DNA of 41,824 nucleotides, taken from Cyanophora paradoxa CCMP329 (Eukaryota; Plantae; Glaucophyta). Positions within the stretch are counted from its first letter, which is position 1. Every line of letters begins with the position of its first letter. The notes beneath the pieces were generated by a model. That model was not told where the DNA came from. It did not search any database and saw only the letters and a program-made list of their open reading frames with translations. The translations under genes were made by a program, and so were the position numbers. Of this stretch, positions 1 to 23,917 are shown in pieces. The stretch covers positions 1-41,824 of the forward strand of contig QPMI01000630.1 of assembly GCA_004431415.1 (NCBI GenBank). Direction: 5' to 3'.

Positions 1-247
1 TCTCGATCCCGATCGGGCGCCTCGCGCGACGCGTCGGCGGCAGGCCTCGTCGACGCGTCGCGACCCTTGGCCGCGCGCGTACGCGACGGAGCGGCGCCCC
101 GGCGGCCCCGCAGAGCGCGCATACCGCCTGCAAGAAGTGTCCCCCGCGGCCGCACGGACTCTCTTGCATCGCGCGTACTTTCCCACCTCGCCTCTCGTAC
201 GAACCCTGACCGTCTTTGCAGCGGCGTGGCGCGACAGACGACCCGCC

Positions 248-1700
248 TCCCGTACCCCTGGCTACGGCGGCGGCAGCGAGGGGGGTAGAGGTGAGCGCGG
301 GAGACTCCCCCCCCCCCAAGGGACCTGAGCCGCCCCCCTTCTTCCCGCCCGCAGATCCCGCTCCTTCTGGGGCGGCGGGGCGAGTCTCCACCGGCCCCCG
401 TACCCCTGGCTACGGCGGCGGCGGCGGTGAGGGGGTAGAGGTGCGCGCGGGAGACTCGCCGGCCCCCCCCCAAGGGACCTGAGCCGCCCCCCTTCTTCCC
501 GCCCGCAGATCCCGCTCCTTCTGGGGCGGCGGGGCGAGTCTCCACCGGCCCCCGTACCCCTGGCTACGGCGGCGGCGGCGGCGAGGGGTAGAGGTGCGCG
601 CGGGAGACTCGCCGGCCTCCCCCCAGGGACCTGAGCCGCGCCCCTTCTTCCCCGCCCGCAGATCCCGAGCCTTCTGGGGCGGCGGGGCGAGTCTCCACCT
701 CCCCCGTACCCCTGGTTACGGCGGCGGCGGCGAGGGGGGTAGAGGTGAGCGCGGGAGACTCGCCGGCCTCCCCCGAGGGACCCTGACCCGCGCCCCGTCT
801 TCCCGCCCGCAGATCCCGCCCCCTCTAGGGGCGGCGGGGCGAGTCTCCACCGCCCCCCGTACCCCTGGCCACGGCGGCGGCGGCGAGGGGGGTAGAGGTG
901 CGCGCGGGAGACTCGCCGGCCTCCCCCGAGGGACCCTGACCCGCCCCCGTCTTCCCGCCCGCAGATCCCGCCCCCTCTAGGGGCGGCGGGGCGAGTCTCC
1001 ACCGGCCCCCGTACCCCTGGCTACGGAGGCGGCGGCGGGGGGGGGGGGTAGAGGTGAGCGCGGGCGACTCGCCGCCCCCTCCCCAGGGGACCCTGACTCG
1101 CGTCCTTCTTCCCGCCCGCAGATCCCGCTCCTTCTGGGGCGACGGGGCGAGTTTCCACCGGGCCCCGTACCCCTGGCTACGGCGGCGGCGGCGAAGGGGG
1201 GTAGAGGTGCGCGCGGGAGACTCGCCGGCCTCCCCCCAGGGACCTGAGCCGCGCCCCTTCTTCCCCGCCCGCAGATCCCGCTCCTTCTGGGGCGGCGGGG
1301 CGAGTCTCCACCGGCCCCGTACCCCCTGGCTACGGGCGGCGGCGGCGAGGGGGGTAGAGGTGAGCGTGGGAGACTCGCCGGCCTCCCCCGAGGGACCTGA
1401 GCCGCTGCCCCGTCTTCCCGCCCGCAGATCCCGAGCCTTCTGGGGCGGCGGGGCGAGTCTCCACTGGCCACCGTACCCCTGGCTACGGGCGGCGGCGGCA
1501 AGGGGGGTAGAGGTGAGCGCGGGAGACTCGCCGGCCTCCCCCGAGGGACCTGACCCGCGCCCCTTCTTCCCGCCCGCAGATCCCGAGCCTTCTGGGGCGG
1601 CGGGGCGAGTCTCCACCGACCCCTGTACCCCCTGCCTACGGCGGCGGCGGCGAGGGGGGTAGAGGTGAGCGCGGGAGACTCGCCCCGCCGCCCCCTGGGG
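248..1700. repeat. Tandem repeat, ~150-155 bp unit, 9 full copies plus 1 partial, with internal inverted motif pair
   Basis: GTACCCC unit starts at about 251, 399, 553, 705, 858, 1010, 1166, 1318, 1472 and 1624. Units carry GGAGACTCGCC (or a near variant) and its reverse complement GGCGAGTCTCC. Confidence 0.95.
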
Positions 1701-1792
1701 CCCCGCCCCGCCCCGCCCCCCCCGCCCCTCCCCTCTCGGACTCATCGGCCCCTCAATTCGACAGGGCTGCGGGCGGAGCGCGGGGGGCGCGG

Positions 1793-2275
1793 CTACGCGC
1801 GCTGCGGGACGGGCGGCCAGCTGTGAGAGCCGAGGGCGAGGGAGAGGGCGTCGTAGGCGAGCCAGAAGCCCTCCTGCGGCTCCGGGGGCGCCGCGAAGAG
1901 GGCCCGCGGCGCCATGCGCTCCTGCGCGCGCCGGGACGCGTTGCGGGTCGACCGGTGGAGACCGAAGAGGCGGGCGGCGTGGGGGCAGCGGCTGGGCTTC
2001 AGCGTCGCGGCCGCGAGCTCCCGTGCGTGCTCGCCGCCCAGAAACTGCCTCAGCTCCTTGGCGCTCAGACGCGACAGCGCCCTGACCATCCCCTCCGTCT
2101 CCAGGTCGACGTGCAGCACCTGCCAGGGCGCGATCCGCTCCGCGGCGCGACGGGACGCGGCGCGGGTCGACTTGCGGATGGCGACGATGGCGGCGACGGG
2201 GCAGCGGGTCACGGTCGCGGACGCGTCGTCCCCGGCCGCGGCGCGGGTCGCGACGCGAGCGGTGGTGCGGGGCAT
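1793..2275 (-). CDS. Hypothetical basic protein (~160 aa) with an internal repeat
   Basis: ATG at 2275 (MPRTTARV...) with TATAAAT ~52 bp upstream. Internal repeat IRKSTRAASRRAAERIAP / LHRSTRNASRRAQERMAP. Protein-like composition. Confidence 0.6.
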   Translation of the reverse strand: MPRTTARVATRAAAGDDASATVTRCPVAAIVAIRKSTRAASRRAAERIAPWQVLHVDLETEGMVRALSRLSAKELRQFLGGEHARELAAATLKPSRCPHAARLFGLHRSTRNASRRAQERMAPRALFAAPPEPQEGFWLAYDALSLALGSHSWPPVPQRA

Positions 2276-2326
2276 CTTGTTTCGATTCGAGAGAGAGAGA
2301 GTGGCACGAGGCCGGGCGCGCCCCCC

Positions 2327-2333
2327 ATTTATA
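2327..2333 (-). promoter_or_regulatory. TATA box (TATAAAT) for the 1793-2275 gene
   Basis: Isolated AT island in very GC-rich context, just upstream of the ATG. Confidence 0.55.
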
Positions 2334-2724
2334 CCCCCCGAGGGGCAGGGCTCGGCCCGAATCCGGGCACCCCCCCCCTTTCCCCTCCCCCTCCTCTCCT
2401 CCCCCCCGTACCCCCCCATCCTGACCTGTTTCCCTCGCCCCCGCAGGTCCCTTTCGTCTCCGCGCCTGGGGCCCCGCCCCGCCCGCCGCCCACCCCCTCC
2501 ACTCCCCCCCTCCCCACCCTTCTCGCCCAGGTACCCCCTCCTCGCCCCCTCCCCCCCGCCTGGAGACTCGCCGCGCCCCCCGCAAACGTCCCCGCCCTCA
2601 CCCCCCCCCCGCCACGCAGGCCGAGGCCGCGGTGGGTACACGGATACGTTGCCGCTGCAGGAGCGGGGGGTACCCGCGCGGCTACCCCGGGCGCCCCCGG
2701 TCCGCGCGCCCCGCCCCTCTGCCC

Positions 2725-3366
2725 CTATCGACCGACGAGCTGAGCGTCCGGGCGCAGCGCCGATCGGGAGGGCGTCTCGGCGGACCGCGTGCACGGAAAG
2801 GAGAGGGAGGCGGGCGGCGGGGCCCCGAAGGACATCCAGTCGACGCTGGCGAATCGCCGCCGGAACGGTTCCGGCATGAAGCCCAGCGTCCCCTCGGCCT
2901 CGGCGGCGAGCCGCGCGGCGTACCCCGGGTCCTCCCGGGCGAGGCGGGCGTGCTCGGCGGCGGCAAAGTAGGCGCCTCCGACGGGGCACGGCGCGCGGCA
3001 CACGGGGCAGCTCGCCGCCCTCCAGCGGACCATGCAGCCGTAGCACATCACGTGACCGCACGCCTCGGAGACGGGCCGCGTCACCGGCTCGAGGCAGACG
3101 GGGCACTCGTCGGTCCAGCGGAGCGGCGACGGCGGCCCGGCGGCGCGGTTCTGGAAGCAGCGCCAGGCGATGCAGCAGGCGAGGCCAAAGTCGATGTGCC
3201 GCTCCCGCGCCGCCTCGTCCTCCTCGGGGTCGGCCCCGAGCGGCATCTCGATCGTCTCGAAGCGGATCCGGCCCTCGGGCGTCGTGCCCACCGCCAGCGC
3301 GCAGCGCGAGACCCCCCTCTCCCGATCGTACTCGATGAGCCGGTGCGCGGGTACCCCCGCCTGCAT
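2725..3366 (-). CDS. C3HC4 RING finger protein (putative E3 ubiquitin ligase), intronless
   Basis: CPVCLEPVTRPVSEACGHVMCYGCMVRWRAASCPVCR is a canonical C3HC4 RING; 213 aa ATG-started ORF. Confidence 0.85.
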   Translation of the reverse strand: MQAGVPAHRLIEYDRERGVSRCALAVGTTPEGRIRFETIEMPLGADPEEDEAARERHIDFGLACCIAWRCFQNRAAGPPSPLRWTDECPVCLEPVTRPVSEACGHVMCYGCMVRWRAASCPVCRAPCPVGGAYFAAAEHARLAREDPGYAARLAAEAEGTLGFMPEPFRRRFASVDWMSFGAPPPASLSFPCTRSAETPSRSALRPDAQLVGR

Positions 3367-3557
3367 TTCTCCCCCGGGCTCAACGCTGACGGGGTACCCC
3401 CTCAGGTCGCCCTCTTTTAGGCTCGCCCCGCGGGGGTACGCCGAGCGGCGCGGCGATTCCGGGCCCCCGTTTCGCGCAGCCGTCGGAGACGCGATAAAAA
3501 AGGGACGGGGCGGGCCTGAATCCGCACACTCTTCGCCGAGCTCTGCACCCCGCGATC
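3367..3557. promoter_or_regulatory. Short divergent promoter between the RING gene and the primase-helicase gene
   Basis: Head-to-head ATGs 191 bp apart. TAAAAG on the minus strand (~3414-3419), GATAAAAAA on the plus strand (~3493-3501), and GGGGTAC motifs. Confidence 0.45.
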
Positions 3558-6500
3558 ATGCCTCCCGTCGCGTCTCCCTCGTCGTCGCCGCCGTCGAGTC
3601 TCCCGCGCGCGTCGCCCCGAAACGGGAGCGCGCCGGCGGCGTCGCGCCCGGGCCCGGCCCCGCGTCGCGTCTCCACCTCCTCGGCCCGCCCCGTCGCAAT
3701 CGGCGAGGATGGGGCGGGGGCGTGGACGCGGCGGCTCGCGGGGCGGAGCCCATGGAGGTCGACGTCGCGCCGGCCGCCCCGCCGCGCCGCCGCCCGGTCC
3801 GGCTGGAGCCCACGCCCTCGTCAAGCCGGCCGTCCCGGCCTCCCGACCCCTTCAACAGCGCTGCGCCGCCGCCCCCTCCGCGACCTCGTCGACGCGGCGG
3901 CGCGGCGCGCCTTCTGCCAGGCCGCCTCCACCCTCGCCGTCCGCCGCCCCGACGGCTCCCAGACCGCCTGCGTCTACGCCGGATTCCTCGACTTTGACGC
4001 CGCCGCATCGCGCCCTCGAGAAGAAGGGCCTCGCCGCCAGGCCGCCCCGCTGCGCACCCTCGCCGAGCTCTTCGCCGCCGAGCCGCGCCTCCTGGAGCCG
4101 GCCGGACCGCGTACAGGCTCGCCAAGGCGTGCGGGGCGTACCCCCCGCGCCCGGCGAGCGCCGCTCGAGTGCCTCGTCACCTTCAGCGGCCTCAAGGCTT
4201 CCACGTCCTCCTCCGCACCCCGCCCTGCTCGTCCGGGCCCCCGGGGCGCGCGTCAAGGCGACGGCCAGGTGGAGCCGCGGCGGCCGCGGCGGCCGGCCTA
4301 CTCCGTGGACGACCTCCTGGAGACGGCGCTCGTACCCCTGCTCCGCAGGCTGCCGGCCTCTCCGAGAGGACGTGCTCGGCATCGTGGCGGCGATCGACAG
4401 GTCCCGCTCAACCCCAACTGCGGCCTCCGCCTCGACGAGTACCCCCACCCGCTCACGGGCGGTACCCCGTCGCCGTCTCGGCCCCGACTCGACGCCCTGA
4501 TCGAGCCCGACGCGAGGCGGCGGAGCGGTCCTCATCGCCGGCGACGGCCCCGCCCGGAGATCTCGGCCTTTCTCTCCGGCCTCTTCGCCGACCTGGAGCG
4601 GCGCGTGGGACGGAGAGGCCGTGCCGCCCTCCCGCCCTCCCGAGGCCCGAGCGCCCCGCGCGAGGGCGCGGCGCGAGCAGGAAGCGTCGGCGGGACGGGA
4701 GCCCGGCCCGGGGCGGCGCCGGCAGCGCGCCCGAGCCCTGCGCCGGCCCTGGAGCTCGCCCCGCACCATCGCGATCGGCGGGCGCGCCCGCAAGGTCCGA
4801 CTCGTGGGCGCTCGGAGGACGGGCGCTACGTCACGTTTCGCGTCAGCCCGCGGCGGCAGCGCGCCCGTGCCACCTCGGCGTCGAGCACGACTGGCGCGGA
4901 CCCTCTGCTCGGTCTCGCAGCTCCTCCCGGGGCGAGCATGGTGCGTTCCGGTGCGGGGCCAGAACACTCGGACTGCGCCCGGCGCCCCGTCTTTGGCGCC
5001 CGTCTGGACGGGCGCGGGCGACCCGGCCGAGGAGCGGCGACGACGCGGCCCTCGTGGCCTCGCGAGTGCCTCTCGAGCATCGCGGACGGGGCGCGCGGCG
5101 GCGCGCCGCCCGCCGCCGCACCCTCCCGTACCCCTTCTCCGTCGTCCCCCGCACCAACGACCGCGTCTACTCTGTCGACGCGCCCTGCGCCGAGTGCGGC
5201 GGGGCGCGCGGGGCGTGCTCGTCGACGTTCTGGCGCGCGAGGTCAAGGCGTTCCCGTGCGCCGGCTGCAAGCGGCGAGCCCCGAGGGCGCACCCGTCGCC
5301 TCGACCTCCTCCCGAGCTGGGCTCGGAGCTGCGCGCCGCGGAGGACGCCGTGCAGCGCGCCTCGTCGCGCGGGCGCTGGAGGCGAACGGGGCCCCGCATC
5401 GCGCTCTTCGGCCGCGGCCGAAGGGCTGGCTGGAGGCCCTCCGCCCCTCGGCGGGCAGCCGGGGAGCAGCTCGTCGCGATCATCGAGGTGCTGCGCCAGC
5501 GGGTCGTGGCCAAGGACTGTCGGCGAGCCGATCCGCCGCGGGCTCGTGCCGGAGCGGCGCGGAAGGCGCTGGACGCGCTCCGCTCCCGACCTGCGCGAGC
5601 CCCTCGGCGGCCCGCGGCGGGGGCTTCGACTGGCGTGACATCGTCCACGACGCCAACGACCTCGGCGACCCGCGGCGCCGGTGGTGGACAAGGCGGTCGA
5701 GGGGCGCTCCGCGGCCGGCCACGCGGCGAGGCATGCTCTTCCTCCGGGCGCAGACGGGTACGGGCAAGTCGCAGGCGATCGTCCACCTCCTCGCCGAGAT
5801 GCGCAAGTCCCCGCCGCGTACGGCCTGCCCCAGCACTTCAGGATCCTCTACGTCGTCGCGGGCGGATCCACGACGAGCTCCTCCTGGCGGACACGCGCTA
5901 CACGGCGATCTGCGCGGTGCGTGGACCTCGTACAAGGAGATGACGCCGGGGCAGCTGGCGCAGGCGAGCGCGCAGCTCATGTCGACCGTCGAGTCGATCC
6001 AGCGCCTCGAGGGCGCCTTCCAGGTCGTCGTCGTGGACGAGGGGGCCAAGGCGCTGGCCACGCTGGCCCTCTCGACGACGCTGGCCAAGGAGGGGCGCCA
6101 CAGCGCGGCGGTCGCGCGATTCAGAAGCCTGTTCGCCAGGCGCACCGCCTCGTCATCGCCGACGCGACCTCTCCCAGCCCGACGTCGACTTCTACGTCGG
6201 CCTCTTCCTCGGGGCCGCGCGGCGCGGCGGGGCGCGGGGCCCGGAGCCCTTCGTGGTGCAGTACCTGCACCGCTCCGCGAGCACGCGCGGCGCGCTCCTC
6301 CTCCCTGGATGTACGCCCCGCTCCTCGTCGCGGCGCACCTCCTGGCCGGCAAGCGCGTCGTCCTCTCCGCCGACGACCGCCGCGCCCTCTTCGCCACCCT
6401 CGCCTCCTCCACGCCCACCCGCCTCCGCGCGCGGTCGAGGCCGGCCGCCTGAGCTCGCTCTTCATCTACGCCGACGCGCCCAACGCGGAGAAGGAGAAGC

Positions 6501-8942
6501 TCAAGGAGAAGGCGCTCGTCGGGCGCTCGACCTCTTCGCCTACAACTCGGCCGTACCCCAGGCAGCGACTTTAACGAGGGCGCTTCGACGTCTGCATCGT
6601 GGCGATGGCGGGCGACGTACGACGTGAACGGGCGGGCAGGCATGGCGCGCGTGCGCTCTGTCGCGGAGCCGGACGTCTTCGTGTGCGCGGGCGCGAGCCG
6701 CGGAGAGGCGCCCTGGGGCCCTGGGGCGACGGTCGGCGCGTCGAGGCCGTCTACGAGCGGCGCCTCGAGGAGGAGCGCGAGATGCGGGGCGGGTCGAGGG
6801 CGACCGCGCCGCTCCCCGGGCCGACCTCGCCTTCCTCCGCATGCAGGCGGCCCGCCTCGTCGTCCTGAACTGGAGCCGCAGCGCACCGTCCAGGCCCTCG
6901 ACGCCAAGTTCGGGAAGATGGGGTACGCGCGCGGCCTGGAGCTCGTCGAGAAGGCCGAGCCGCTCCCAAGTCCGTCGCCTCGCTCCTGAACGCCTCGCCG
7001 CGCGCGTGCGCTCGGCGGCGATCTACGCCCCGTGGCCGCCGCCGCCACCCTCGGGAGAGGACCCCGACGGCGCCATCGTGGAGAGCATGCTGGCCGGAGG
7101 CGCCGGCGGCGCTGGGTCGGTGGCCCGTGACCGAGGCGGAGAGGCTCGCGTGCCGGAAGCGCTTCGTGGCCGGCGCCCTCCGCATCGACCCCGCCGACGT
7201 CAGCCTCGCGGAGTCGAGGCGCACGCCAAGGAGACGCCGCCTCCTCCGCCCCCTGATCCGCCTTTGGCGCCGCCGCCGGCCCTTCCTCGCCGACCGCGAC
7301 GGCGGGGGCGGTCTACGGAGCACGGGGGGTACGGCTCCTGCGGGGCGCGTGGACAAGCAGCACACGCGGCGGAGCGCCCTCGCCTCCTCGCCCTGGCGGC
7401 GGCCCGGCCCCGCGGGCCCGCGGCCCGGCCGCCCGGCGCCCTCGTCGTCGAGAAGCTCTCGCCCCTCGGGCTCCTCGACTCGTTCGCGCCGGACGCCTGC
7501 CCGCGGCGGACCTCGCTCGCCTCGCGGCGCGGTGGAGCGGGACCGGCTCTTCGAGCACGCGACCCGGCGGACTTTGTGGTCGGGGCGGGCCTGCTCCAGC
7601 AGGCCGACCGGGCCGACGCGCCGCGTGCAGGGCGTACCGCGCGCGCGCCCAGGAGCTCTTCGATCTGGCCAAGGAACCGACGCTGGAGGTGCCGTGGGAA
7701 GCACTTTCTCCGACTCCTGAAGCGGGCGGCCATCTGGGCGGGCGTACCCTCAAGCCGCCGTCTTCGCGGGCCCCCGAAGCGCCGACAGGTCGGCGGGCGG
7801 CGGGTGACCCAGAGGGCGGCGTCGAGGGCGGATTCGTGTGGACTACCTCGCCCTCGCCTTTGTTACCTGCGCCACGCCAAGACCGAGTACGCGTCCCGGC
7901 GGCTCTTCGAGGCGTCGAACCCGGAGCCGAGGCGGCGCGGCGCGCGGAGGAGGAGAGGAGGGGAGGAGAGGGCGCGCTCCGGCGGGACGGCGAGGAGGGG
8001 AGGGGCGGGCGAGGGCGGCCGGCGGGGGGAGGAGACGGACGTGGCGGACGGCCTCGATCGGGCGAGCGAGGGCGGGACGAGACGCGGAGCCGACCGGGAG
8101 GCCATCGAGCGCTCCTCGCGGGGCCGCCCGGGGGAGCGCGCCCCCTCCCGCCCGTCACGTACCCGAGCCGGAGGAGGCGCGGGCGCGCGCCGGTGGACCG
8201 CCACGGGCCCGCCTCTTCTTCTCCGCGATGAACCTGACGGCCGTCGCCATGAGCGCGATCGTCGAGCTGGGCGGCCGCTGCCGCAGCGCAGCCCCTGCGC
8301 GAGCGCGCCGAGCTCCACCCCTCTGTCTGGTACGGCCGGCGCGCGCGCTGGCGCGGAGCCCAACGAGCTGCTCGGCGGCTCCTGGGATGGGGGGGCGAGG
8401 AGCGATCCGCGCGGCGGCGGCGCGCGTGCACGCGGCCCTGCTGGACTCGTGCGACGCGGAGGAGAGGGCGGGCGCCGAGTCCGAGGCGGAGCGCGGGTGA
8501 CGCCGGCGGCGCTCGAGGAGCTCCTCCGCGCCCTCTGCGAGCGGGCCGCCGAGGCGGAGGCGCGCTCCGCGGCGGATCCCGGCGTCGACGAGGAGGACGC
8601 GCGCTGGTTCGTGGGGCGCCTGGCCGAGGCCTGGCGCGCCGGCGCGGGGACGCGCTCCGACCCCGCCAGTTCACCAAGAAGGAGCTCAACGGATCTTCAA
8701 GCCCAAGACCCGACGAGCGGGAGGAGCTCCCCGTGACGCTCCGGGGGCTCCCGAACAAGGTCGCCGTCATCAAGCCCGGCAACAGCAGCGGTCCGGCCTC
8801 GGCCTCGTCGCCGACTGGCTCGAGAGGCGCGGGGCGCCGTCCCTCCGCATCCAGCTCGAGTGGCGCGCCCGCCCCAAGGGAAGGAGCTCACGGGGATCGC
8901 CGTCCCCGCGCCCTCTTTGCTCACTTCGGATTCGACAGCTAG
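3558..8942 (+). pseudogene. AEP primase fused to UL9/replication-origin-binding-protein-type SF2 helicase (multiply frameshifted in this assembly)
   Basis: AEP motif I GFLDFD (3981-3998), motif II FSGLK/GFHV across a frameshift (~4182-4207), motif III region LRLDEYPHPLTG (~4425-4460). CxxC pairs at ~5185-5270. Walker A AQTGTGKS (5748-5771), STVESIQRL, Walker B VVVVDE (6024-6041), VIADAT (~6152-6169), LDLFAYNSAVPQGxDFNE and MARVR (~6642), as in OBP/UL9-like helicases. Coding-like fragments continue to a stop at 8942; the 3' end is uncertain. Confidence 0.8.
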
Positions 8943-9455
8943 GCACCCCCCTCCTGTACGCGAGCACCTCTGAACGCGTGCGGCTCCCTCTTCCCTCGGT
9001 GTTCGGGGGTGGGGTACGGGGGCGGGAGGGAGGGGAGGGAGGGGAGGGGCCCGGGCGCCCCGCCCCGTTCGCCCTCGCAGGCTCGCAGCCGGCCGTTCGC
9101 GCTCCAAAGGTGCGGCGTACCCGCCCTCCCCTCCCCTCCCCCCGCCTCCGCTTACCCCCTCGTGACAGGGCCCGTTCGAACGAGGCCTTCGCATGCGCCC
9201 TCTCATCTGAGCGATTCCTTTTCGGGTATTTTTCTCGCGCCCCGCCGCACTATAAAAAGATCGCGCCGCCCCGAAACCTCACTCTCAAGTTTCGCAGCTT
9301 CGCAACATGAGCTCGGCCCTTTCCGTCGCGTCCTCTCTCGACATGATCGACCCGGCGCTTTTCGGTCGCGACGGCGCGCTCTTCTCCTGCGGCGCACCGG
9401 CCCCGGCGGCCTGGACTCGGCCCGGCTCCTCCGTCGCGTCGATCCTCGCCGCCGC
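8899..9455 (+). repeat. ~555 bp segmental duplication, copy 1 (primase-helicase 3' end, intergenic region, TATA, start of next gene)
   Basis: Near-identical to 9954-10517. Confidence 0.95.
9251..9258 (+). promoter_or_regulatory. TATA box (TATAAAAA), duplicated at 10306-10314
   Basis: About 55 bp upstream of ATG 9307; the second copy is a similar distance upstream of ATG 10364. Confidence 0.6.
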
Positions 9456-10972: not shown

Positions 10973-11008
<36 letters not shown>

Positions 11009-11249: not shown

Positions 11250-11322
11250 GCGCGCCGGCGTTTGCATAAAGGGGACCCGCGCCGCCTCTCCCGCAGCGGC
11301 GGCGCCCAGGGCCTGAGCGGGG

Positions 11323-14389: not shown

Positions 14390-14769
14390 GGTGCTTCTAT
14401 TTATCCGCGCCCAGGCCCTCACACTCTTGAGGGCGGCTTTGTTTTCGGCCGACGTGCGCTGCGGGCGGCCCCGAGGTTTACGAGTATGTATATGTGCGTA
14501 TGCGGGGAGAATTCGAATCGAACTGCAGCGCTAGCTGGGATCCGGATCGGGCCTGCGTCGACGTTCCGTCGACCTAGGCCTCCCGCCCGCCGTTGCCCGC
14601 GTCTCCCGCGCGGACTGCTTTATAAGCGAGCGCATGCACGGCCCGGGCCCGGGGGGACCGGGCGGGGGCGGGGGTGCACGTGCCGAGGCGGCGGGCGGGG
14701 TGCGTGACCCGCGAGTCGCCCTCCCCTCTGGACGTTGGCCGTACCCCTCCTCCTCCCCTCCCCGGGCCC

Positions 14770-16400
14770 CCCTCCGGAGACTCGCCGCCACCCCCCTCTG
14801 GAGGGAGCGGCGCTCGCGCGTCGTCCGCAAGGCGAACGAGTGAAAGGGAGGGAGGGTGCCGCGCCGCAAGAGGCAGGGGGTAGAAGAGTTTCCGGGGCGC
14901 CATGCGCCCCCGCGCCGATGGACCAGGCCTAGGGGCGCCGAAGCTCGTTCTGGGCGTCGGGCGAGTCTCCAGGGGGAGGGGGGGGGCCGCCGGGGGTACG
15001 GCTCGGAGCTTTCGCGCCGCTCTCTCTCGGGGGCGGCGGCGAGTTTCGAAGGGGGGGGGGGGAGCTTGAGGGGGGTAGCTGGGGTACGAGCGAGATTCTA
15101 GCGCCGCCCTCTGTCGGGGCGGCGGCGAGTCTCCCGGGGGGTGAAACGAGGGGGTACGTGGGGTACGGTCGAGATTCGAGAGTCGTTTGCTTCGAGGGGT
15201 GGCGGCGAGTCTCCAGGGGGGGAGGGGGAGGTAGGTGGGGTACGGTCAGAGATTCAGCGCCACCCTCTTTCGGGGCGGCGGCGAGTCTCCAGGGGGGAGG
15301 GGAGATAGCTCGGGGTACGGTCAGAGATTCAGCGCCACCCTCTTTCGGGGCGGCGGCGAGTCTCCAGGGGGGTGGGACGAGGGGCACGTGGGGGTACGGG
15401 AGAAATTATAGAGCTGTTCGCTTCGAGGGGTGGAGGCGAGTCTCCAGGGGGGAGGGGGAGGTAGGTGGGGGTACGGTCAGAGATTTAGGCGGCGCGGCTC
15501 TGGATCTCTCTCGGGGGCGGCGGCGAGTCTCCGGGGGGTGGACGAAGGTACGTGGGGGTATGGCCGAGATTATGGAGCAGTTCGCTTTGAGGGGTGGCGG
15601 TGAGTCTCCAGAAGGTAGGAGGAGGCCACCGAAAACTCGCCGCGCCCCCCTCAGGGACCCGTTGCACGGGCGTGAGAAGCCAAGGGTGAGCGAGCTCGAG
15701 GAGAAGGCCGGTCCCGTACCCCGTCTCCCAACCTGGACCCCGCTGGAAACTCGCCACGCCCCCCTCAGGGGCCGGCTGCACGAGCGTGAGAAGCCGAGGG
15801 GGAGCGAGGGAAAGGCCGGTCCCGTACCGGGACCCCATCTCCCAAACCTGCCCCCCGCCGCTGGAAACGCGCCGCGCGCCCCTCAGGGGCCGGCTGCACG
15901 AGCGTGAGAAACCGAGGGGGAGCGAGGGAAAGGTCGGTCCCGTACCCCGTCTCCCAAACCTGCCTCTGCCGCTGGAAACTCGCCACGCGCCCCTCGGGGG
16001 CCGGCTGCACGGGCATGAGAAACTTTAAGCCGAGGGCGAGCGAGGGAAGGGCGGACCCGTACCCCGTCTACAAACCCGCCCCTGCCGCTGGAAACTCGCC
16101 GCGCGCCCCTCAGGGGCCCGCTGCACGGGCGCGAGAATTCGGAGCCGAGGGCGAGCGAGGAGAAGACCACCACCCCCTCCCCCCTGGAGACTCGCCGGCT
16201 CCCCCCTCTGAGAGAGCGGTGCTCGAGATTTGATCGTACCCTCACCAACCCCCGCCCCCCGCCCCCTGGGAGACTCGCCGGCTCCCCCTCGGAGAGAGCG
16301 GCACTCGCGCGTCGTCCGTACCCCCGCCGAATGGAAGATGAAACCCCGCCTCCCGCCCCCCTGGAGACTCGCCGCCGACCCCCTCTGAGAGAGCGGCGCT
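14770..16400. repeat. Polarity-switching array of GGA(A/G)ACTCGCC-containing degenerate repeats
   Basis: One forward copy at ~14776. Then ~9 reverse copies at ~76-87 bp spacing (14960-15610), each followed by GGGGTA(C/T)G except the last. Then ~8 forward copies (15631-16373), the first five at ~115 bp spacing. Confidence 0.85.
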
Positions 16401-16410
16401 CGGGATACGC

Positions 16411-16422
16411 AATATATATAAG
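16411..16422 (+). promoter_or_regulatory. TATA-like element upstream of the TFIIB-like gene
   Basis: AATATATATAAG directly after the motif array; further TATAAA at ~16513 and CATAAAT at ~16651. Confidence 0.35.
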
Positions 16423-16710
16423 GAATGCGAGAGGTCTAGATCGCAGAGGGACCGGAGCGTGCGGCCAGAGCACCTTCAGGTGATCGCGGTCAGGGCTCAG
16501 ATTTCGAAACGATATAAAGGAACGCGCGCGCGCGCGCCTCTATCTCTGCGCACACGGATCCGGGCCGGGCGGGCACTCACGACCACGATCCATAGATTGC
16601 GATCGATCGAAACTGGGTTCGCCCCCAAGATTCGTGATCGCGATCGGCGGCATAAATTTCAGACCGCTTTCACAGAGCCCTCAGTCCCCACACCGCGACC
16701 GAAAACGATC

Positions 16711-17630
16711 ATGAGCAGTTGCGTCCACCCTTACGTCGCGTCCGGGGCCGAGGGCGACGTGTGCACGTCCTGCGGCATGTGCCTCGACGCGTACGGGTCG
16801 TACGCGACGCCCCTGGGCCTCGTCTGCGACGAGCAGGGCGGCGCCGGCGTCGCGTCCTCGCACGATCGATATCTGCAACTGGGGCTGGATCTGCTACGCG
16901 ATATTCCAGAGCCGGCGCCGCGCACGTGCACGTGGCAGCCTTCCAAGTCTAGTTCTGCGCGCGCAATCCCGAGCTCGAGCGCGCACGGTACCCACGCGAA
17001 TATGAATCGCACGGAGCTGGATCAGACTGTGAGGGAGACGGCAGAGCGCATGCTCCTCCGGAGATTGTCTGGCGCGAGGCCCTGGAAACGCTCCGCGAGA
17101 AGCGCGCCGTGATCTCGGGAGGCGGTACACATCCCTCGCCCTCGCGGCCCTCTATCTGGCCGTCCAACAGCTCGATATCCCTCGTGGGATACACGATTTC
17201 GAGCACGCGGCCCCTCCCGAGGCGCGCCACGAGGTCCGAAAGTACGTTCGCGTCCTCTTGGAGGCGACGCCGGCGCCGGCGCCGGCCGCGGGGCCCCCCG
17301 CGGGCGATCGGCGCGAGGGCCGTCGCCTTCACACGTACGACTTGGGCGTGTCCCTCGTGGAAAGCGTCGGAAAGAATATTGGAATCGACGGTTCGATCAT
17401 CTCGGCCGCCCAGAAGCGCTACAGAGAGTACCTGGAGGCGGGACGAGCTCGTTCCAGGACCCGAAGATCCTAGCGATAGGGGCGCTCGCGCTCGCGGCCA
17501 AGCTCTCCGGACGCGCTTCCTGGTCCACGCGAAAAATCGCGATTCGAGCCGGGCCTCTCCGACCGCCGCGCGCGCTGCGGTCAGGGAGATGAGGGCACGG
17601 CTCGGGATAGACCTAGATCTAGACCCGTAA
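16711..17630 (+). pseudogene. Transcription initiation factor TFIIB-like protein (Zn ribbon plus two cyclin repeats), intronless, about 4 frameshifts
   Basis: N-terminal CVH...GDVCTSCGMCLD zinc ribbon. Repeat 1 across frames: TVRETAERM.PEIVWREALETLRE..GRRYTSLALAALYLAVQQLDIPRGIHDF (cf. GR...AIAAACLYIACRQE.VPRT..EI). Repeat 2: LVESVGKNIGIDGSIISAAQKRY...SR.PKILAIGALALAAKLSG...STRKIAIRAG.SPTAARAAVREM. Confidence 0.85.
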
Positions 17631-18234
17631 TCAAGTGCTAGAACTCGATCGATATCCAGATCTAGCTCGAAATTGACTTTGTCATGTGAATATTTGTATA
17701 CGTAGCCTGGATGATTTTCCGCAGAAACTTGAAATATCGCTAGCCATGATATCGATCATGATCATGAATTTGAATATAGATTAATATATTCATCTGGAGC
17801 AGATCCTAGCTATAGTTATGACGAGTCAGTTGAATAAACAAATCTAAAGCTCACGATGAAGACTCTGAGATGAAAACTACGATATGCATATGGCAGCGCA
17901 TCTGCAGCGATCGCGATACATGTATACCGTACAGGCATGATTATGGACAGAGGGACGCGCCTAAAAGGACGCGCCGGCCCGCGCCTCATGGCATGTACAC
18001 GGTCAGCCCTCTCCGCAGAAATTCGAATCCGTGACCATCGAGGTGGACGACGCCTAGCTATAGCTCCTTGAGAGTATAGTTGAACATCGCAGGCCTATAG
18101 CTAGGTGCGCGCGCACCGGCTGCGAAATTTTCAGACGTCTCACGGGGGATTCGAAAATTCGTATTCACAGCCCAGGCCATGTCCACGCACACTCATATTG
18201 CCTAGACCATCGCAGCGCGTCCGACGGTCGAGGC

Positions 18235-20688
18235 ATGGCATCTGCAAACTCGCCCCCCAGCCGCGATCGCGATCGCGATCGCGATGAAGAGAAAGATCTA
18301 GATCCGGGTTCCGGATCCGGAGCGAGCGCGAGGGGGCGGTTGCTGCCCTCGCCGAGCTCGGGGGGCGGGTCCAGGCCCCCTTTCGACTCCCGCCCCGCCA
18401 AAGTCCAACTTCCAGCGTACCTGAGCGTGGGGAGGGACCCGGCCCTCGCCTTTCGCCCCTCGTGCGCGCGATGCCAGGTCGAGCGGGTCCCACCCCCATC
18501 GTACATGCTTCCCTGCGCCGTCTCGCGCATCTTGGACCGCACCGGGGCCTCGAGCTTGAACGGATCGCTCGAGGCGCACCCCCGCCCCACGTTCGAGGAC
18601 CTCCGAAGCTGCTCAGGAAAAGCCTGCATCTGCGTCACCTGCGCGATCAATCTGGTGGCCGCGGCCGCGGCCGCCCCCGCCCCCGCCCCCGTGTTCAAGT
18701 GCCCCGCCTGCGGGGAGGACCACCGCGCGCCGGACGAGCTCCTGAGCTCGTCCCGTATCGACGCCTACCTCGCCTACGCGTCCTTTATCGAGGACGGAAA
18801 CAACCCGCAGGCCTGGATCGCCTCCGAAATTATCGGGAGGCAGGCGCTGGCCTCGGTGTTTGAGCACGTGGCCCACCTGGCGCTGGAGGCGGCGCGGGCA
18901 AAGGAGACCCCGCGATCCCGATCGCGAGCGCTGCCCCGCCCCCCCGGGCCCGGCCGGCCCCCCGGCCTCGACGTTGACGTTGGCGCCGGCGCCGGCGTCG
19001 ACGTCCGCGGCAGCGCGAGCCGGACCCGGCACGTCGCGCCCGGACACCGACCCCGCAGCCGGAGAGGGTCCGAGCGGCCCGTCGGAAGGGAACCCGGCGC
19101 CGGCGCCGCCCGGGCCCGGTACCGCGGCCGGTGCGGGCTCGAGTTCGAAAAAGGGCAAGGAGCCGGCCCTGCACGCGCAGGCGCCCGCGGCCGCCCCGGC
19201 CTCCCCGCCGGCAGAGGGCGATCGCGAGAGCGAGGCCAAGGGCGAGGCCGGCGCCGGCGCCGGGGCGAGCGCCAGGGCGGGCCCGGGGCTCCGAAAGCGC
19301 CCCGATCGCGAGGGGCAGGTCCCCTCGGGCGCGACGCAGGCGGGCACCCCCCAGGAGGGGGGCCCCTCCAGGGCGAAGCGCCAGCGGAGCAAGTGGGGCT
19401 CGGGGAGGACGGAGCGCAAGCCCTACGAGAGCGACAAGCTGGTCAAGGTCCTCTACACGGCCTACACGTACCCCGCCGAGCTCGATCGCGACGCGGATGG
19501 GCCAGAGGACGGGGCAGGGGCGCCGGCAGAGGGTTCGAGCTCGCGCTCGGGCTCGGGCTCGGAGCTCGGCGATCCCGCCCCCGGTCCGTCCGCGGCCGGC
19601 CGTGGCCCGGCGGGCGCCGGGCCCTCTGCGGGCCCCTCTGATTCCGGCAAACGCAAGCCTCCGAATTCTCCGGCTGCCGCGGCCGCCGCCGCCGGCTCCG
19701 ATTCCGGATCCGGGAAATCTCAGAGTCCGACGCGGGCTCCCGCGCCGGGAGTCCGGATCCGCGCGATGCGGAGCTGGCCGAGGCGTGGAGCAAGGCCTAC
19801 GCGGCGGCCGTCCGGTTGGACTCGGAGGCGTCGTCCGAGCGCGACGGGGGGGAGGCCGCGGGGGGGGACGAGCTCGAGAGCGCGGGGAGCGCCTCGCAGG
19901 AGGGGCAGGAGGAGGATCCGGAGAGCCTCCCGCCTACGAAAAGGGGCTGGCCGTGGGCGTGGACGTCGCCCTCGTCGGCCGCCGCCTCGACGCGAATCCG
20001 CAGGCCCGGGCGGCTCTGCTCGAACGCGTTCAGAACCTGGGGCGGGAGAGAATTCGGGCGCTCGTCCTCGTCGCCGCCGCGGTCCTCGGGGCGTACGAAA
20101 AGTACAGGTGGGCGCGCGGGATTTCTGTCCATTCTTTCTGCCCGCGCAGGCGGCCGATGGGGCGGGTGCGGGGCGCAGGACTCGCACGGGAACAATCGAA
20201 AATTGTGGGGTACTGGAGAAAGGAGCACATCGAGACAAAGTACAACTCGATTCTCGGTTCGTTTAAATTTCGCGAGCTCGGGGCGCCGGCGGCGCTCCTG
20301 TTGCGCGTGGCCGTGGGGCCGGACTCCCCCCCGCTGACCCTGCAAGCGTGCACCCGTTTGCGCAGAGGCGGTGGGATTCCGGCTCGAGCTCCCGGCACAG
20401 AGAACCGAGATTTACACCGATCTCAAGAATCTGGCAGAGACGATGCGCAGATTCCCCGGCCTCTGCCGGGTCTCTGGGTCCGGCATCAGTCCGATCGACT
20501 TTCTGTCGACCGTACCCCTGCTCAAAACCGCCGACGCCGAGGGCGCGAAGCGCGTCGCTGCGCGGGTGAGCGACGAGGTCCGCCGCGCCAAGGGGTACGC
20601 GTTCGACGAGTCGGTGCTCGAGCTGGGGGCCCTGCAGCCGGCGGCGAGGAGGGGAGGGCGACGCGTCATCCTCGGAGGCGGGGGGTAG
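18235..20688 (+). pseudogene. Large frameshifted ORF with N-terminal RING-like Zn finger, low-complexity linker and unknown helical C-terminal domain
   Basis: CARC...LPC...ICVTC...FKCPAC pattern at ~18460-18715. Coding continues through frames 18860.., 19816.., 19131.. and 20371..20688 (e.g. TEIYTDLKNLAETMRRFPGLCRV). Confidence 0.5.
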
Positions 20689-21246
20689 GGGGATTCTGGG
20701 AGCTCCCCGGCCTGCGCACGCGGGCGCCGTAATTTCGAATTCGGAGCTCCCCTCTCGGACGTCGACCCGCCCGAGCTCCTGCGCCCAAGCCTCGGACCGC
20801 TGCACGTGGTGACTTTATTTGTAAAATCTAGACCGCTGCACGTGACAGCGGGCGCTGCACCCCAGCTCTTCATCTTGATCGCGATTCGATAACTGCTCTG
20901 ATACCATCTTGATACTCGCCGAGAGTCGAGCTCGGGTAAAAGTCGAGCCAGAGAAGAGTAATATTTAATATTAAATTTCGCATATACACTGAATGCTCCG
21001 CGGACAAATTTCATGGCCGCGCTTAAAGGGATGCCTAGGTCAGAGACTCGGAGATCGTCCAATCGTCCGGTACCCGGTGACAAGCACGATGGAAACTTCG
21101 ACGGGCCCGCGGCCGCCAATTCATTTGCATTTGCCGATTCATAGCGCGAATTTCGCCGCGAAATGCTTGACCGCGAGCCCGCGCGATCCCGAGGTCGACG
21201 GCGATCCTCGAACTCGTGCGCGTGATCACGACGGGTTCGGGGGCGG

Positions 21247-21798
21247 TTGCCGGGAGGGTTCAGAGGGGTCCGAGTCGGGGACGGGGACCGGGTGGCGGCG
21301 CCGGCGGCTCCGGCGCCTGGCCATGCATATGGGCCCTGCTTCGCGGCGCGCTGCGCCCCGGACGGCGAGCGGGTCGATCTCTGCGACGCCCTCGTGCGGC
21401 AATCCATCCTGCTGGCGTCCCTGTCCGAGTGCAGCGACGTCGGCCTGGGCGGCGCGCTCGAGGCCACGCCCGTCGATCTGCCGGCGACGGCGGACACCGT
21501 GAGGCTCGCCAACGCGGCGGCGTCGGGCGCCTGGCCGCCCGATCCAGTCCCGCTGCCCCTCTATTTCTCGCTCATCGACCTGCTCCAATTTTTGGACGCT
21601 TATGCGGGCCCGCTCGGCCTCCAGGTCGTAGGGCGGGCCGCGGCCGAGGCGTCCCGGATCGACATCAAGACGCTCCTGCGCGCCCTGGACGCGCGCTGGG
21701 CTCCGCCCGAGCCCGCCCCGGCGCCCGCGACCGCGGGGCCCCCGGCCCGCGCTCGCGCAAGCGACCCAGGTCTCCGATCGCGAACCCAGCAGATCTAG
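21247..21798 (+). CDS. SKP1/POZ-like protein (divergent); start codon uncertain
   Basis: DGERVDLCDALVRQSILLASL...TPVDLPATADTVRL...LYFSLIDLLQFLDA...LQVVGRAAAE parallels SKP1 SDGE.FEV...VA.QS.TIK.M...PIPLPNV....L...LFELILAANYLDI..LLD..CK.VA. Confidence 0.65.
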   Translation: MPGGFRGVRVGDGDRVAAPAAPAPGHAYGPCFAARCAPDGERVDLCDALVRQSILLASLSECSDVGLGGALEATPVDLPATADTVRLANAAASGAWPPDPVPLPLYFSLIDLLQFLDAYAGPLGLQVVGRAAAEASRIDIKTLLRALDARWAPPEPAPAPATAGPPARARASDPGLRSRTQQI

Positions 21799-21939
21799 AT
21801 CTAGAGGCCTAGGGGCGAGGGGCCGGGCGCGGCCTCGAGACCTAGGCCTACACAGACATCCGTTTTATATATAGCTAGCTTTTTTATTATACATTGGGAG
21901 CGCGCGATTCTACGAACTTCCGAACCGCATGCGCTCGAG

Positions 21940-22692
21940 CACGAGTCTCCCAGAGGGAGAAGAAGGGGGTACAGGCCAAGAGGGAGGGGGAAGTATCAGG
22001 GGGGGGAATTCGTGGCGGTGGGGAGGGGGCGAACGGTTGCAAGGGGGTACAGGCGGTCTCGCATGGGGTTCTGGATCTTCTAACGGGGGCGAGGCGAGTT
22101 TCCAAAAGGCGGGCAGGGCGTGTGTGAAGGGGTACAGCGCGCGACTCGAAGCGTCTCCCCCTAGAGGGGGCGTGGCGAGTTTCCAGAGGGGGGGGGGGGT
22201 AGGGGGTACAAGGGGGAATTCGAGCGCGACCACAATGCAGACTAGGATCGCTCCCTCCATCCCTTGGAACAGGAACCCTTCCGGGGGCGAACGGTTGCAA
22301 GGGGGGTACAGGCGGTCTCGCATGGGGTTCTGGATCTTCTAACGGGGGCGAGGCGAGTTTCCAAAAGGCGGGGCAGGGGCGTGTGAAGGGGTACAGCGCG
22401 CGACTCGAAGCGTCTCCCCCTAGAGGGGGGCGTGGCGAGTTTCCAGAGGGGGGGTAGGGGGTACAAGGGGAATTCGAAGGCCTCGCCGCACCCCTAGCTA
22501 TAGGAGGGCCGGGGCGAGTTTCCAGAAGGCTCGGAGTGGGTGTGCGGGCGCCCTCGAAATTAAAGGTACATCCTCTGGGGTGGACGTGGTGAGTTTCCAG
22601 GGGGCGAGGCGTGAGGAAGTAAGGGGTGGAGATTTCGAAGGTTAGCACCCTCTTTATCCAGCTATAGCTGGGGGAGCACGGCGAGTTTCCAG
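21940..22692 (-). repeat. Reverse-oriented GGAAACTCGCC motif block including a ~200 bp direct duplication
   Basis: About 8 GGCGAGTTTCC-like copies; 22026-22222 is repeated at 22283-22476. Confidence 0.85.
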
Positions 22693-22780
22693 AGAACGCG
22701 CGCAGGCGCGGGAGATCTTTGCGGGCCGTGACACCTAGAACTCACCGTCTCGCTCATACTATGATATCCCGCGTCTCGGC

Positions 22781-23385
22781 CCCCAGCTGGAAACTCGCCC
22801 CGCTCCCCCTCAGAGCCCTCCGCCCCTTGCTGGAAACTCGCCCCGCTCCCCTCAGAGCCCCCGCCCCCCAGCTGGAAACTCGCCCCGCTCCCCCTCAGAG
22901 CCCTCCCGCCCCCCAGCTGGAAACTCGCCCCGCTCCCCCTCAGAGCCCTCCCGCCCCCCAGCTGGAAACTCGCCCCGCTCCCCCTCAGAGCCCTCCCGCC
23001 CCCCAACTGGAAACTCGCCCCGCCCCCCCTTAGAGCCCTCCCGCCGCAGCTGGAAACTCGCCCCGCTCCCCCTCAGAGCCCTCCCGCCCCCCAGCTGGAA
23101 ACTCGCCCCGCCCCCCCTCAGAGCCCCCCCGCCGCAGCTGGAAACTCGCCCCGCCCCCCTCAGAGCCCCCCGCCGCAGCTGGAAACTCGCCCCGCCCCCC
23201 CTCAGAGCCCTCCGCCCCCCAGCTGGAAACTCGCCCCGCCCCCCCTCAGAGCCCTCCCGCCCCCCAGCTGGAAACTCGCCCCGCTCCCCCTCAGAGCCCC
23301 CCCGCCGCAGCTGGAAACTCGCCCCGCTCCCCTCAGAGCCCTCCCGCCCCCAGCTGGAAACTCGCCCCGCTCCCCTCAGAGCCCG
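22781..23385 (+). repeat. Tandem minisatellite, ~42-46 bp unit x14 (CAGCTGGAAACTCGCCCCGCTCCCCCTCAGAGCCCTCCCGCCCC)
   Basis: 14 forward GGAAACTCGCC copies counted; units differ mainly in C-run length. Confidence 0.95.
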
Positions 23386-23917
23386 AGGTGCCGGCGGGGC
23401 CGTGACGAGAAACTAGAAGAGAGGGGCGGGGAGGGGGGGGGCGACCTCGCCGGATTGCTCATACCCCGCCCCGCGTCCTGGCCCGCCTCTACCCCCCCCC
23501 TCCCCCTTCCCCCCCTCCCTCCCCCCCTACCCCCCGCTCCCCTGAAACTCCCCCTGCCCCCCCCCGGCGCTCGCGCTAGCCCGCGCGCAGCAAGCGTTCT
23601 TCGAGGCTCTTCAGCGCTTGTGCATTTGGTCAGCGCGCGAGCGGCGCGCGGGGGGGTACGTTGCCTCTGGCTTCGATCCTTGCGTACCCCCCGAGTCCAT
23701 CGCCGCCGGCGCGCTTGGCGGAGCTCGCGATCGCGGGGCGAGGCGCGGCCCGCGTTCGATATTCAGATGGCCACCGCGCCGCCCACTCCCCACGCTGCGG
23801 CGCCGGGCCCAGCGCGACTCGAAAGGATCTGCAGAGGGGTATGAGCACGCCGAGGGGCCCAGGGGGGCCGAGAGAGACCGCGTACCCCCGCCGCGCAGGA
23901 GACTGCAACTGTCCTTC

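What the first reader, a model, noticed from the sequence alone, without database searches (positions are those of the whole stretch)
248..23420. Candidate undescribed virus-like replicon embedded next to host genes: primase-OBP helicase, own TFIIB, ubiquitin modulators and oriented motif arrays
Seen: a ~23 kb block of compact, mostly intronless genes (AEP-UL9-type helicase fusion, TFIIB, SLX1-type GIY-YIG, 2 RING-type, SKP1-like, Zn-knuckle) interleaved with three repeat blocks sharing one 11-mer, abutting intron-dense host genes. Known: TFIIB, OBP-type helicases, AEP primases, GIY-YIG, RING and SKP1 homologues are recurrent in large eukaryotic DNA viruses such as Nucleocytoviricota. Inference: this is part of an endogenous virus or a large self-replicating element, possibly a family defined by the primase-OBP fusion. 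No capsid, polB, integrase or transposase is visible here, so its class is open.
Basis: partly seen in the sequence, partly recalled or inferred. Interest (0 to 1): 0.88.

Follow-up and report, generated by a model that had tools for sequence, protein, structure and literature searches.

The report
Virus-like mobile element carrying centromere-type histone
The alga Cyanophora carries about four near-identical copies of a DNA block at least 25 kb long that encodes a giant-virus-type primase-helicase and a histone H3 variant with centromere-type features; it is likely an undescribed integrated virus or virus-derived mobile element that would copy itself from its own repeat arrays.

Summary
Real, and longer than reported. 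The window is a Cyanophora paradoxa contig. Bases 1-25503 are the right-hand part of a block present in about four copies: GC-adjusted short-read contig depth is 3.5-4.5x the host flank in two runs, and gene models lie on four contigs. A second family, 37% identical, has at least two copies. The big gene is an AEP primase fused to a UL9-type SF2 helicase; its frameshifts are assembly errors. That fusion is already known (mimivirus R8, ASFV pF1055L, some mriyaviruses, SmDNAV), so it defines no new family. The 11-mer GGCGAGTYTCC occurs 53 times (0.17 expected), none outside the block. One RING is confirmed, TFIIB only weakly; GIY-YIG, SKP1, second RING and Zn-knuckle have no library support. No capsid, polymerase or integrase is visible, but the left end is missing, so the class stays open. 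Best reading: a recently spread, integrated element descended from a nucleus-dependent large DNA virus. New variant of a known kind.

The parts
1..25503 (.). Visible right-hand part of a multi-copy element (about 4 copies); left end lies outside the window
   Evidence: Depth 3.5-4.5x host at 1.75-8.95 kb and 23.5-25.5 kb; gene models on four contigs. Depth for 9.4-23.4 kb not measured
241..1684 (.). Array 1: 9.5 x 153-bp unit, each with an inverted pair of the 11-mer
1793..2275 (-). Orphan 160-aa ORF; copies on tig00021439 and tig00021741 differ by one residue
2725..3366 (-). C3HC4 RING-finger protein, likely E3 ligase; copy on tig00000526
   Evidence: Pfam E 1.5e-7
3558..8942 (+). AEP primase, Cys-rich linker, UL9/OBP-type SF2 helicase and long C-terminal part; frameshifts here are assembly errors
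8899..10525 (+). Internal rearrangement: 0.57-kb direct duplication (8899-9465, 9954-10525) around three 150-bp tandem copies of a helicase-gene piece (9461-9913)
   Evidence: real, since the joint is in short-read contigs at element depth and the tig00000526 model has it
10364..11249 (+).
   Evidence: sequence; no library hit
11323..11672 (+). Orphan ORF with one frame break
   Evidence: no library hit
13541..14389 (-). 282-aa ORF; C-terminal part resembles SLX1-type GIY-YIG by eye but lacks the GIY, YIG and Glu residues (family motif recalled); cluster of 3 gene models
   Evidence: no hit
14776..16373 (.). Array 2: one - copy, seven + copies, then six - copies; lies between divergent genes
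16711..17630 (+). TFIIB-like gene (Cys/His ribbon-like start, cyclin-repeat-like pieces), two frame breaks
   Evidence: weak: Pfam E 0.1, NCBIfam E 0.039; negative local profile test
18235..20688 (+). Long low-complexity gene or genes with Cys-rich (RING-like) start and one GT-AG intron near 20108-20150
   Evidence: no library hit
21226..21798 (+). SKP1/BTB-like by eye only
   Evidence: no supporting hit
22093..23384 (.). Array 3: six + copies, then 14 - copies in a 45-bp tandem; lies between convergent genes
23918..24986 (-). Intact histone H3 variant, 9 exons, 155 aa; long loop 1, W for F84, but H3-like tail
   Evidence: inside the 4x unit
25503..25504 (.). Right junction of the element (plus or minus a few bases)
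   Evidence: The element contig stops at 25503 in 3 of 3 runs; single-copy depth from 25590
25504..25590 (.). Piece of a high-copy host repeat whose usual upstream neighbour differs: likely the insertion target
   Evidence: depth 3753 vs about 55 in X1; loose ends at 25504 in X1 and X13
25590..41824 (.). Single-copy host flank: unknown genes, MYND-finger gene (about 28660-30708), VPS13 (31552-41824, minus)
   Evidence: Pfam; depth and 0 gaps for 25590-35390

Best explanation
Bases 1-25503 are the right-hand part of a DNA block that sits in about four near-identical copies in the Cyanophora paradoxa genome and encodes an AEP primase fused to a UL9-type helicase; it is likely an integrated provirus, or close derivative, of a nucleus-dependent large DNA virus that spread recently. 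Shown: copy number, sharp right end, domain make-up of the replicase, the three 11-mer arrays, the intact H3-variant gene. Inferred mechanism: the helicase's C-terminal part would bind the 11-mer (as HSV UL9 binds oriS boxes) and open the DNA at the inverted pairs; the AEP domain would prime; a host polymerase would extend, since no polymerase gene is in view. The TFIIB-like protein would steer host RNA polymerase II, the RING (and SKP1-like) proteins would redirect host ubiquitin ligation, and the captured H3 variant would package the element's DNA. Integration would need a recombinase or integrase, and particles would need capsid genes; both would have to lie in the unseen left part.
For: GC-adjusted contig depth 3.6-4.5x (X1, 7 pieces), 3.5-4.5x (X9, 9 pieces), 3.0-5.2x (X13, 8 pieces) in a haploid. 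Gene models on four contigs, with a one-residue difference at a base where short-read contigs also break, so separate copies. A second family at 37% identity on two more contigs. AEP fold: the top 10 VIA rows are all primase/Prim-Pol chains, Z 4.2-6.2. Helicase: top 4 of 8 PDB hits are herpes origin-binding protein, E 0.011-0.017; top Foldseek viral hits are OBPs and NCLDV SF2 helicases, best E 2e-5. The same fusion with TFIIB and no DNA polymerase is the kit of SmDNAV/Ariadnavirales. Giant-virus-derived, methylated regions are reported in this species.
Against: No capsid, packaging ATPase, VLTF3, HUH, polymerase or integrase hit in 285 frames scanned of 380. The strongest profile hit of the helicase is a cyanobacterial plasmid Rep, CyRepA1 (E 3.5e-7), not a viral family. 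No relative in IMG/VR, metagenomes or phages. The arrays lack an AT-rich core like oriS (recalled), and the array-1 unit folds no better than shuffles (z 0.73). The element holds intron-bearing genes and a histone, both absent from ariadnaviruses. Models are low-confidence (pLDDT 57 and 39); Z under 8 is common by chance, and the helicase model gave only generic alpha/beta matches in VIA. No listed short-read contig bridges 25503/25504.
Confidence: 0.5

Rival explanations
1. A capsid-less giant transposon or integrating plasmid-like replicon: same replicase and arrays, a recombinase at the unseen end, host genes such as the H3 variant picked up as cargo, never packaged.
For: Sharp end inside a host repeat and near-identical dispersed copies. 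No virion gene in 25.5 kb. Best profile hit CyRepA1; 32 plasmid records match the helicase, all cyanobacterial. CyRepA proteins drive autonomous replication.
Against: CyRepA1 matches only the helicase part (25% over 293 columns); AEP plus UL9 is the viral layout. No terminal inverted repeat partner is in view, though the left end is missing.
Confidence: 0.25
2. A dead fragment of an old giant-virus insertion that was copied passively by segmental duplication together with a neighbouring host H3 gene.
For: Methylated giant-virus regions exist in this genome. The internal duplication at 8.9-10.5 kb is shared by copies. The H3 gene has host-type introns. Depth ratio is about the same in 2012 and 2024 runs.
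Against: The replicase frame is open for 2000 aa in the second family and largely open on tig00000526. CpG is not depleted (o/e 1.14-1.41). The boundary is sharp and close to the last gene. Two divergent families are each multi-copy.
Confidence: 0.13
3. An integrated mirusvirus-type (Duplodnaviria) genome: intron-bearing, replication-poor, herpes-like origin binding.
For: Some mirusvirus orders lack replication genes and carry spliceosomal introns; integrated and circular forms occur in protist assemblies.
Confidence: 0.07
4. Contaminant or chimeric assembly.
For: No listed contig bridges the junction; the left 9 kb is error-rich.
Against: 20 of 24 listed runs, one species label, years 2012 and 2024, hold 84-86% of the words of 13-22 kb. 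Depth is a steady multiple of host. Sequence errors fall to zero towards the junction, as expected when long reads are anchored in the unique flank.
Confidence: 0.03

Closest known systems
AEP-UL9 primase-helicases of Nucleocytoviricota and relatives (mimivirus R8, ASFV pF1055L, mriyavirus SF2_hel, SmDNAV, Ostreid herpesvirus 1; PMC11253617, 10.64898/2026.08.29.747986)
   Same: N-terminal AEP with DxD and SGxKGxH motifs, then a UL9-type SF2 helicase.
   Different: About 1700-2000 aa with a long unassigned C-terminal part; no sequence-level relative outside C. paradoxa in the searches run; sits in a multi-copy integrated element with repeat arrays.
'Ariadnavirales' / SmDNAV (10.64898/2026.08.29.747986)
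   Same: TFIIB plus AEP-UL9 helicase, no DNA polymerase; associated with protist and red-algal assemblies.
   Different: About 200 kb, no introns and no histones per the preprint; this element has both. No MCP, ATPase or VLTF seen here.
Mriyaviricetes (PMC11253617)
   Same: No DNA polymerase; a subset has AEP-SF2 helicase; 35-45 kb would fit a 25.5-kb right part.
   Different: Defined by MCP, ATPase, VLTF2/3, RuvC and HUH endonuclease, none seen here; the paper's text has 0 occurrences of TFIIB, histone or integration.
HSV-1 UL9 with oriS (PMC12543377, abstract)
   Same: SF2 helicase motifs align; inverted short boxes in the element's own DNA.
   Different: 53 boxes in three GC-rich arrays; intact-looking primase; binding not tested.
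CyRepA1 plasmid replication proteins of cyanobacteria (NF042913)
   Same: Best profile hit for the helicase; replication initiators of autonomous DNA.
   Different: Only the helicase part matches; DUF3854-type N-terminus there, AEP here.
Polinton-like viruses, reported in C. paradoxa (PMC12220804, one passage)
   Same: 14-40 kb integrated elements that multiply in protist genomes.
   Different: Replicase here is AEP-UL9/SF2; no MCP, mCP, ATPase, integrase or terminal repeat seen.
CenH3/CENP-A histones (criteria in PMC4359364)
   Same: Longer loop 1, no Q68, W for F84; loop-1 exon hits only S. pombe Cnp1 in PDB.
   Different: Tail keeps canonical H3 motifs; the next exon hits canonical H3 first; location untested.

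Membership tests
AEP-UL9 primase-helicase family | N-terminal AEP domain with catalytic motifs | tested here: met
   DxD and SGxKGxH conserved between the two families; top 10 VIA rows all primase/Prim-Pol, Z 4.2-6.2, rmsd 4.3-5.5, 127-165 aligned; model pLDDT 57
AEP-UL9 primase-helicase family | UL9-type SF2 helicase behind the primase | tested here: met
   PDB profile search top 4 of 8 = origin-binding protein, motifs I-III, V, VI aligned; Foldseek viral best E 2e-5; CyRepA1 E 3.5e-7; Pfam gave no hit for P0002
AEP-UL9 primase-helicase family | Sequence-specific origin binding by the C-terminal part | not testable with these tools
   Needs a binding assay; both fold jobs went to the other two domains
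Nucleocytoviricota | Double-jelly-roll MCP, A32 ATPase, VLTF3 | tested here: inconclusive
   No Pfam hit in 285 of 380 frames scanned, but frames are broken by assembly errors and the left end is missing
Nucleocytoviricota | Family B DNA polymerase (absent in mriya- and ariadnaviruses) | tested here: inconclusive
   None in view; left end missing
Ariadnavirales | TFIIB plus AEP-UL9 helicase without DNA polymerase | tested here: inconclusive
   Helicase met; TFIIB weak
Ariadnavirales | No introns, no histones | tested here: not met
   H3 variant with 8 introns inside the unit against the preprint's statements
Mriyaviricetes | HUH endonuclease, VLTF2/3, RuvC, MCP | tested here: inconclusive
   None in view; left end missing
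Polinton-like viruses / Polintons | MCP, mCP, ATPase, RVE or tyrosine integrase, terminal repeats | tested here: inconclusive
   None in view; no partner for the last 513 bases within the window
Mirusviricota | HK97 capsid module | tested here: inconclusive
   None in view; left end missing
Mobile element (any class) | Several near-identical copies with a sharp end | tested here: met
Mobile element (any class) | Target-site duplication or matched ends | not testable with these tools
CenH3 | Extended loop 1 | tested here: met
   About 11 residues longer than canonical H3 (canonical length recalled)
CenH3 | No Gln at 68/69, no Phe at 84/85 | tested here: met
   Ala and Trp; LRW shared with Cnp1; canonical Q68 context recalled
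CenH3 | No Thr at the diagnostic position | tested here: inconclusive
   PMC4359364 writes position 118, where Thr is kept; at 107 (recalled criterion) Thr is replaced by Ala
CenH3 | Highly divergent N-terminal tail | tested here: not met
   Tail keeps H3 motifs such as KAPRK, ARKSAP and KKPHRYRPG
CenH3 | Centromere localisation | not testable with these tools
   Needs ChIP or imaging

The most novel reading that the evidence does not exclude
A new class of eukaryotic self-replicating element that brings its own origin system (UL9-type primase-helicase plus oriented 11-mer arrays) and its own centromere-type histone H3, so that excised copies persist as mini-chromosomes that recruit the host kinetochore, or integrated copies bias centromere inheritance.
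Probability: 0.13. Interest if true: 0.92.

Novelty: new variant of a known kind. Interest (0 to 1): 0.66.

Why it matters
The paper searches run here turned up only passing mentions of virus-like DNA in glaucophytes. This element has an apparently intact replicase, two divergent families, recent spread and a culturable haploid host, so its class, ends and inducibility can be settled from existing long reads. The 53 boxes beside a UL9-type helicase make a long-standing guess testable, that giant-virus 'origin-binding' primase-helicases recognise specific origins. A mobile element carrying an intact H3 variant with CenH3-type features would be unexpected; if it acts at centromeres it links selfish DNA to chromosome segregation.

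Tried and rejected
Homologue searches outside C. paradoxa were blank: 1.84 billion representatives gave 4 hits, 3 from C. paradoxa and one unrelated TPR-rich protein; three word-index searches gave only C. paradoxa proteins (only about 8000 candidates scored each); IMG/VR and metagenome scans found no relative; phage tblastn none; a 29-nt array pattern in IMG/VR none. The Atlas gave no result. No RNA holder was listed for 13-22 kb, and run X24 may be DNA, so nothing is claimed on expression. PDB searches with the TFIIB, GIY-YIG and SKP1 pieces and with the AEP alignment gave nothing relevant; GIY-YIG against phages gave only weak kinase hits; TFIIB piece against plasmids none. A six-sequence haloarchaeal TFB profile did not separate the read-through gene from 500 shuffles. 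Foldseek with the AEP model had no match at E 0.001 or better. The helicase model in VIA gave generic alpha/beta folds. Rfam gave one chance hit. The array-1 hairpin is no more stable than shuffles. 17 of 20 exact ORF look-ups were not in the collection. Rejected: frameshifts as decay; an extra truncated copy of the last 830 bases (the higher depth vanishes after GC adjustment in X1 and X9); the 150-bp tandem as an assembly artefact; the AT-rich end as a lox-like site (imperfect arms, end lies outside the spacer).
Full report
Source. A gene model identical to the window's helicase frame is EukProt Cyanophora paradoxa tig00021440_g21531, so the window is from that glaucophyte alga, which is most likely haploid (PMC6704402, passages). 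The right part of the window is ordinary host DNA: VPS13 and a MYND finger by Pfam.

The repeats. GGCGAGTYTCC occurs 53 times between 379 and 23366 and never beyond; shuffles give 0.17. Array 1 is a 153-bp unit with an inverted pair of boxes; arrays 2 and 3 have + copies followed by - copies. Most boxes are preceded by a G-run. Arrays 1 and 3 lie between gene 3' ends and array 2 between divergent genes, so they are not simply promoters. They are GC-rich, and one array-1 unit folds no better than shuffles (z 0.73).

The replicase. The gene at 3558-8942 is shredded in this contig, but short-read contigs laid on it show 17-56 gaps and 0-4 other letters per 1-2 kb piece in run X1 and are longer than the window span they cover, while 23 of 24 listed pieces at 23.4-35.4 kb have no gap. 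The breaks are assembly errors. A gene model on tig00000526 matches the window in ungapped, mostly identical pieces over 1815 of 2182 residues. A second family, 37% identical, has a 2000-aa model on tig00021072 and a broken one on tig00001007. The N-terminal domain, folded from a two-sequence alignment (pLDDT 57), had primases and Prim-Pol chains as its top 10 rows among 48,161 chains (Z 4.2-6.2); Foldseek alone was not significant. The helicase profile hit herpes origin-binding protein as top 4 of 8 PDB rows with the SF2 motifs aligned (E 0.011), the low-confidence model (pLDDT 39) hit OBPs and giant-virus SF2 helicases, and NCBIfam gave CyRepA1, a cyanobacterial plasmid Rep (E 3.5e-7). Pfam gave nothing for the intact copy. 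The fusion is known from mimivirus R8, ASFV pF1055L, some mriyaviruses, malacoherpesviruses and SmDNAV (10.64898/2026.08.29.747986, parts 1-3 of 4 read; PMC11253617, passages).

Other genes. The RING at 2725-3366 is solid. TFIIB is the best hit for one fragment in two libraries but weakly (E 0.1 and 0.039), and a local archaeal profile did not confirm it. GIY-YIG, SKP1, the second RING and the Zn knuckle had no supporting hit; I see the resemblances by eye to recalled motifs, and the GIY-YIG-like frame lacks the recalled catalytic residues. Pfam scans covered 285 of 380 stop-free frames of 60 aa or more; those left out lay in the arrays or on the non-coding strand of VPS13.

Copy number and boundary. 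Long contig pieces on single-copy host DNA average 55 (X1), 86 (X9) and 20 (X13) in depth; element pieces at 1.75-8.95 kb and 23.5-25.5 kb are 3.0-4.9x, 2.8-4.8x and 1.6-6.2x raw, and 3.6-4.5x, 3.5-4.5x and 3.0-5.2x after a linear GC fit. I used 40 of the 48 listed rows for these three runs, dropping 8 short or internally duplicated ones, and none from X24. The tool warns that depth is no copy number, but the figure agrees with gene models on four contigs: the window, tig00000526, tig00021439 and tig00021741. The 160-aa ORF differs by one residue between the window and two other contigs, at base 1825, and contigs in X1 and X13 start at 1826, so the copies are distinct. tig00021741 carries both that ORF and the 13.5-14.4 kb ORF ten gene numbers apart, which ties the two halves together. 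Depth for 9.4-23.4 kb was not measured. In 3 of 3 runs the element contig stops at 25503 with a last letter that does not fit the window; 25504 onwards is a piece of a repeat at roughly 60-fold depth whose usual upstream neighbour differs; single-copy DNA starts by 25590. I read this as insertion into a host repeat, possibly at a TACGTA palindrome (inferred). No listed short-read contig bridges the junction.

The histone. Inside that boundary lies an H3-variant gene at 24986-23918: 9 exons, 7 GT-AG introns and 1 GC-AG intron, an open 155-aa frame. Loop 1 is about 11 residues longer than canonical, Q68 is absent and F84 is W. The loop-1 exon hits only S. pombe Cnp1 in PDB (2 rows, E 0.04), the next exon hits canonical H3 first, and the tail keeps H3 motifs. 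Against published criteria (PMC4359364, passages) it meets the loop, Gln and Phe tests, is unclear on Thr and fails the divergent-tail test. I call it CenH3-like, not CenH3; I put centromeric function at about 35%. Its host-type introns point to capture as DNA (inferred).

How it likely works. Shown: a multi-copy unit with a sharp end, a primase-helicase, arrays confined to the unit, an intact histone gene. Inferred: the helicase binds the boxes and opens the DNA as HSV UL9 does at oriS through its C-terminal domain (PMC12543377, abstract), the AEP primes, host polymerases extend, and small genes tune host transcription, ubiquitin and chromatin. TFIIB plus AEP-UL9 without a polymerase is the kit of nucleus-dependent ariadnaviruses, though those lack introns and histones. 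Two earlier AI notes describe hairpin arrays beside such helicases in giant viruses; I did not check them and treat them as leads. The enzyme for integration and any virion genes are not in view, so provirus (0.5) cannot be told from capsid-less replicon (0.25); passive duplication (0.13), mirusvirus (0.07) and artefact (0.03) follow.

What is in print. PMC12344493 (abstract, sections 9 and 10 part 1, passages, one supplement) reports methylated giant-virus regions in C. paradoxa without naming these contigs in text. PMC12220804 and PMC8502044 (one passage each) mention PLV- and adintovirus-like sequences in this species. 10.1101/2024.01.18.576163 and 10.64898/2026.06.19.733378 (passages) do not name Cyanophora. 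10.1101/2023.10.09.561360 and PMC3380720 were seen as passages. Searches listed no paper describing this element or a mobile element with a CenH3-like gene. The library lacks most subscription journals; the genome paper's supplement could not be read and preprint supplements were closed, and these may list the contigs.

Verdict. The element is real, multi-copy and virus-like; the fusion is not new; the boundary and the histone cargo are the additions. New variant of a known kind, interest 0.66, with a 13% chance of something categorically new.

Noticed in passing
window 25504-25590: Piece of an uncharacterised repeat at roughly 60-fold depth; no Rfam match. The common form lacks 6 bases near 25551.
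   Followed up: partly
P0002 / P0005 (tig00021072, tig00001007): Second element family with a 2000-aa primase-helicase, 37% identical to the window's family; its arrays and cargo are unseen.
   Followed up: partly
window 2833-3165: A contig at about twice element depth matches parts of the RING gene with differences, so related RING genes lie elsewhere in the genome.
   Followed up: no
window 11700-13400: Stretch without a clear gene, with one 11-mer at 11899 and an AT-rich part near 13200-13540; could be a nested insertion or an old end.
   Followed up: no
window 25219-25264: Perfect 24-bp tandem pair 240 bases inside the right end, upstream of the H3 variant.
   Followed up: no
window 25465-25503: AT-rich last 40 bases with an imperfect inverted repeat; possible recombinase or transposase site.
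   Followed up: partly
window 1-328: 3' part of an unknown + strand frame cut by the window start; first gene of the unseen left part.
   Followed up: no
window 13541-21800: Several element genes are richer in GATC than VPS13 (8-13 vs 2 per kb).
   Followed up: no
window 25600-28500: Single-copy host ORFs with no Pfam hit next to the insertion.
   Followed up: no
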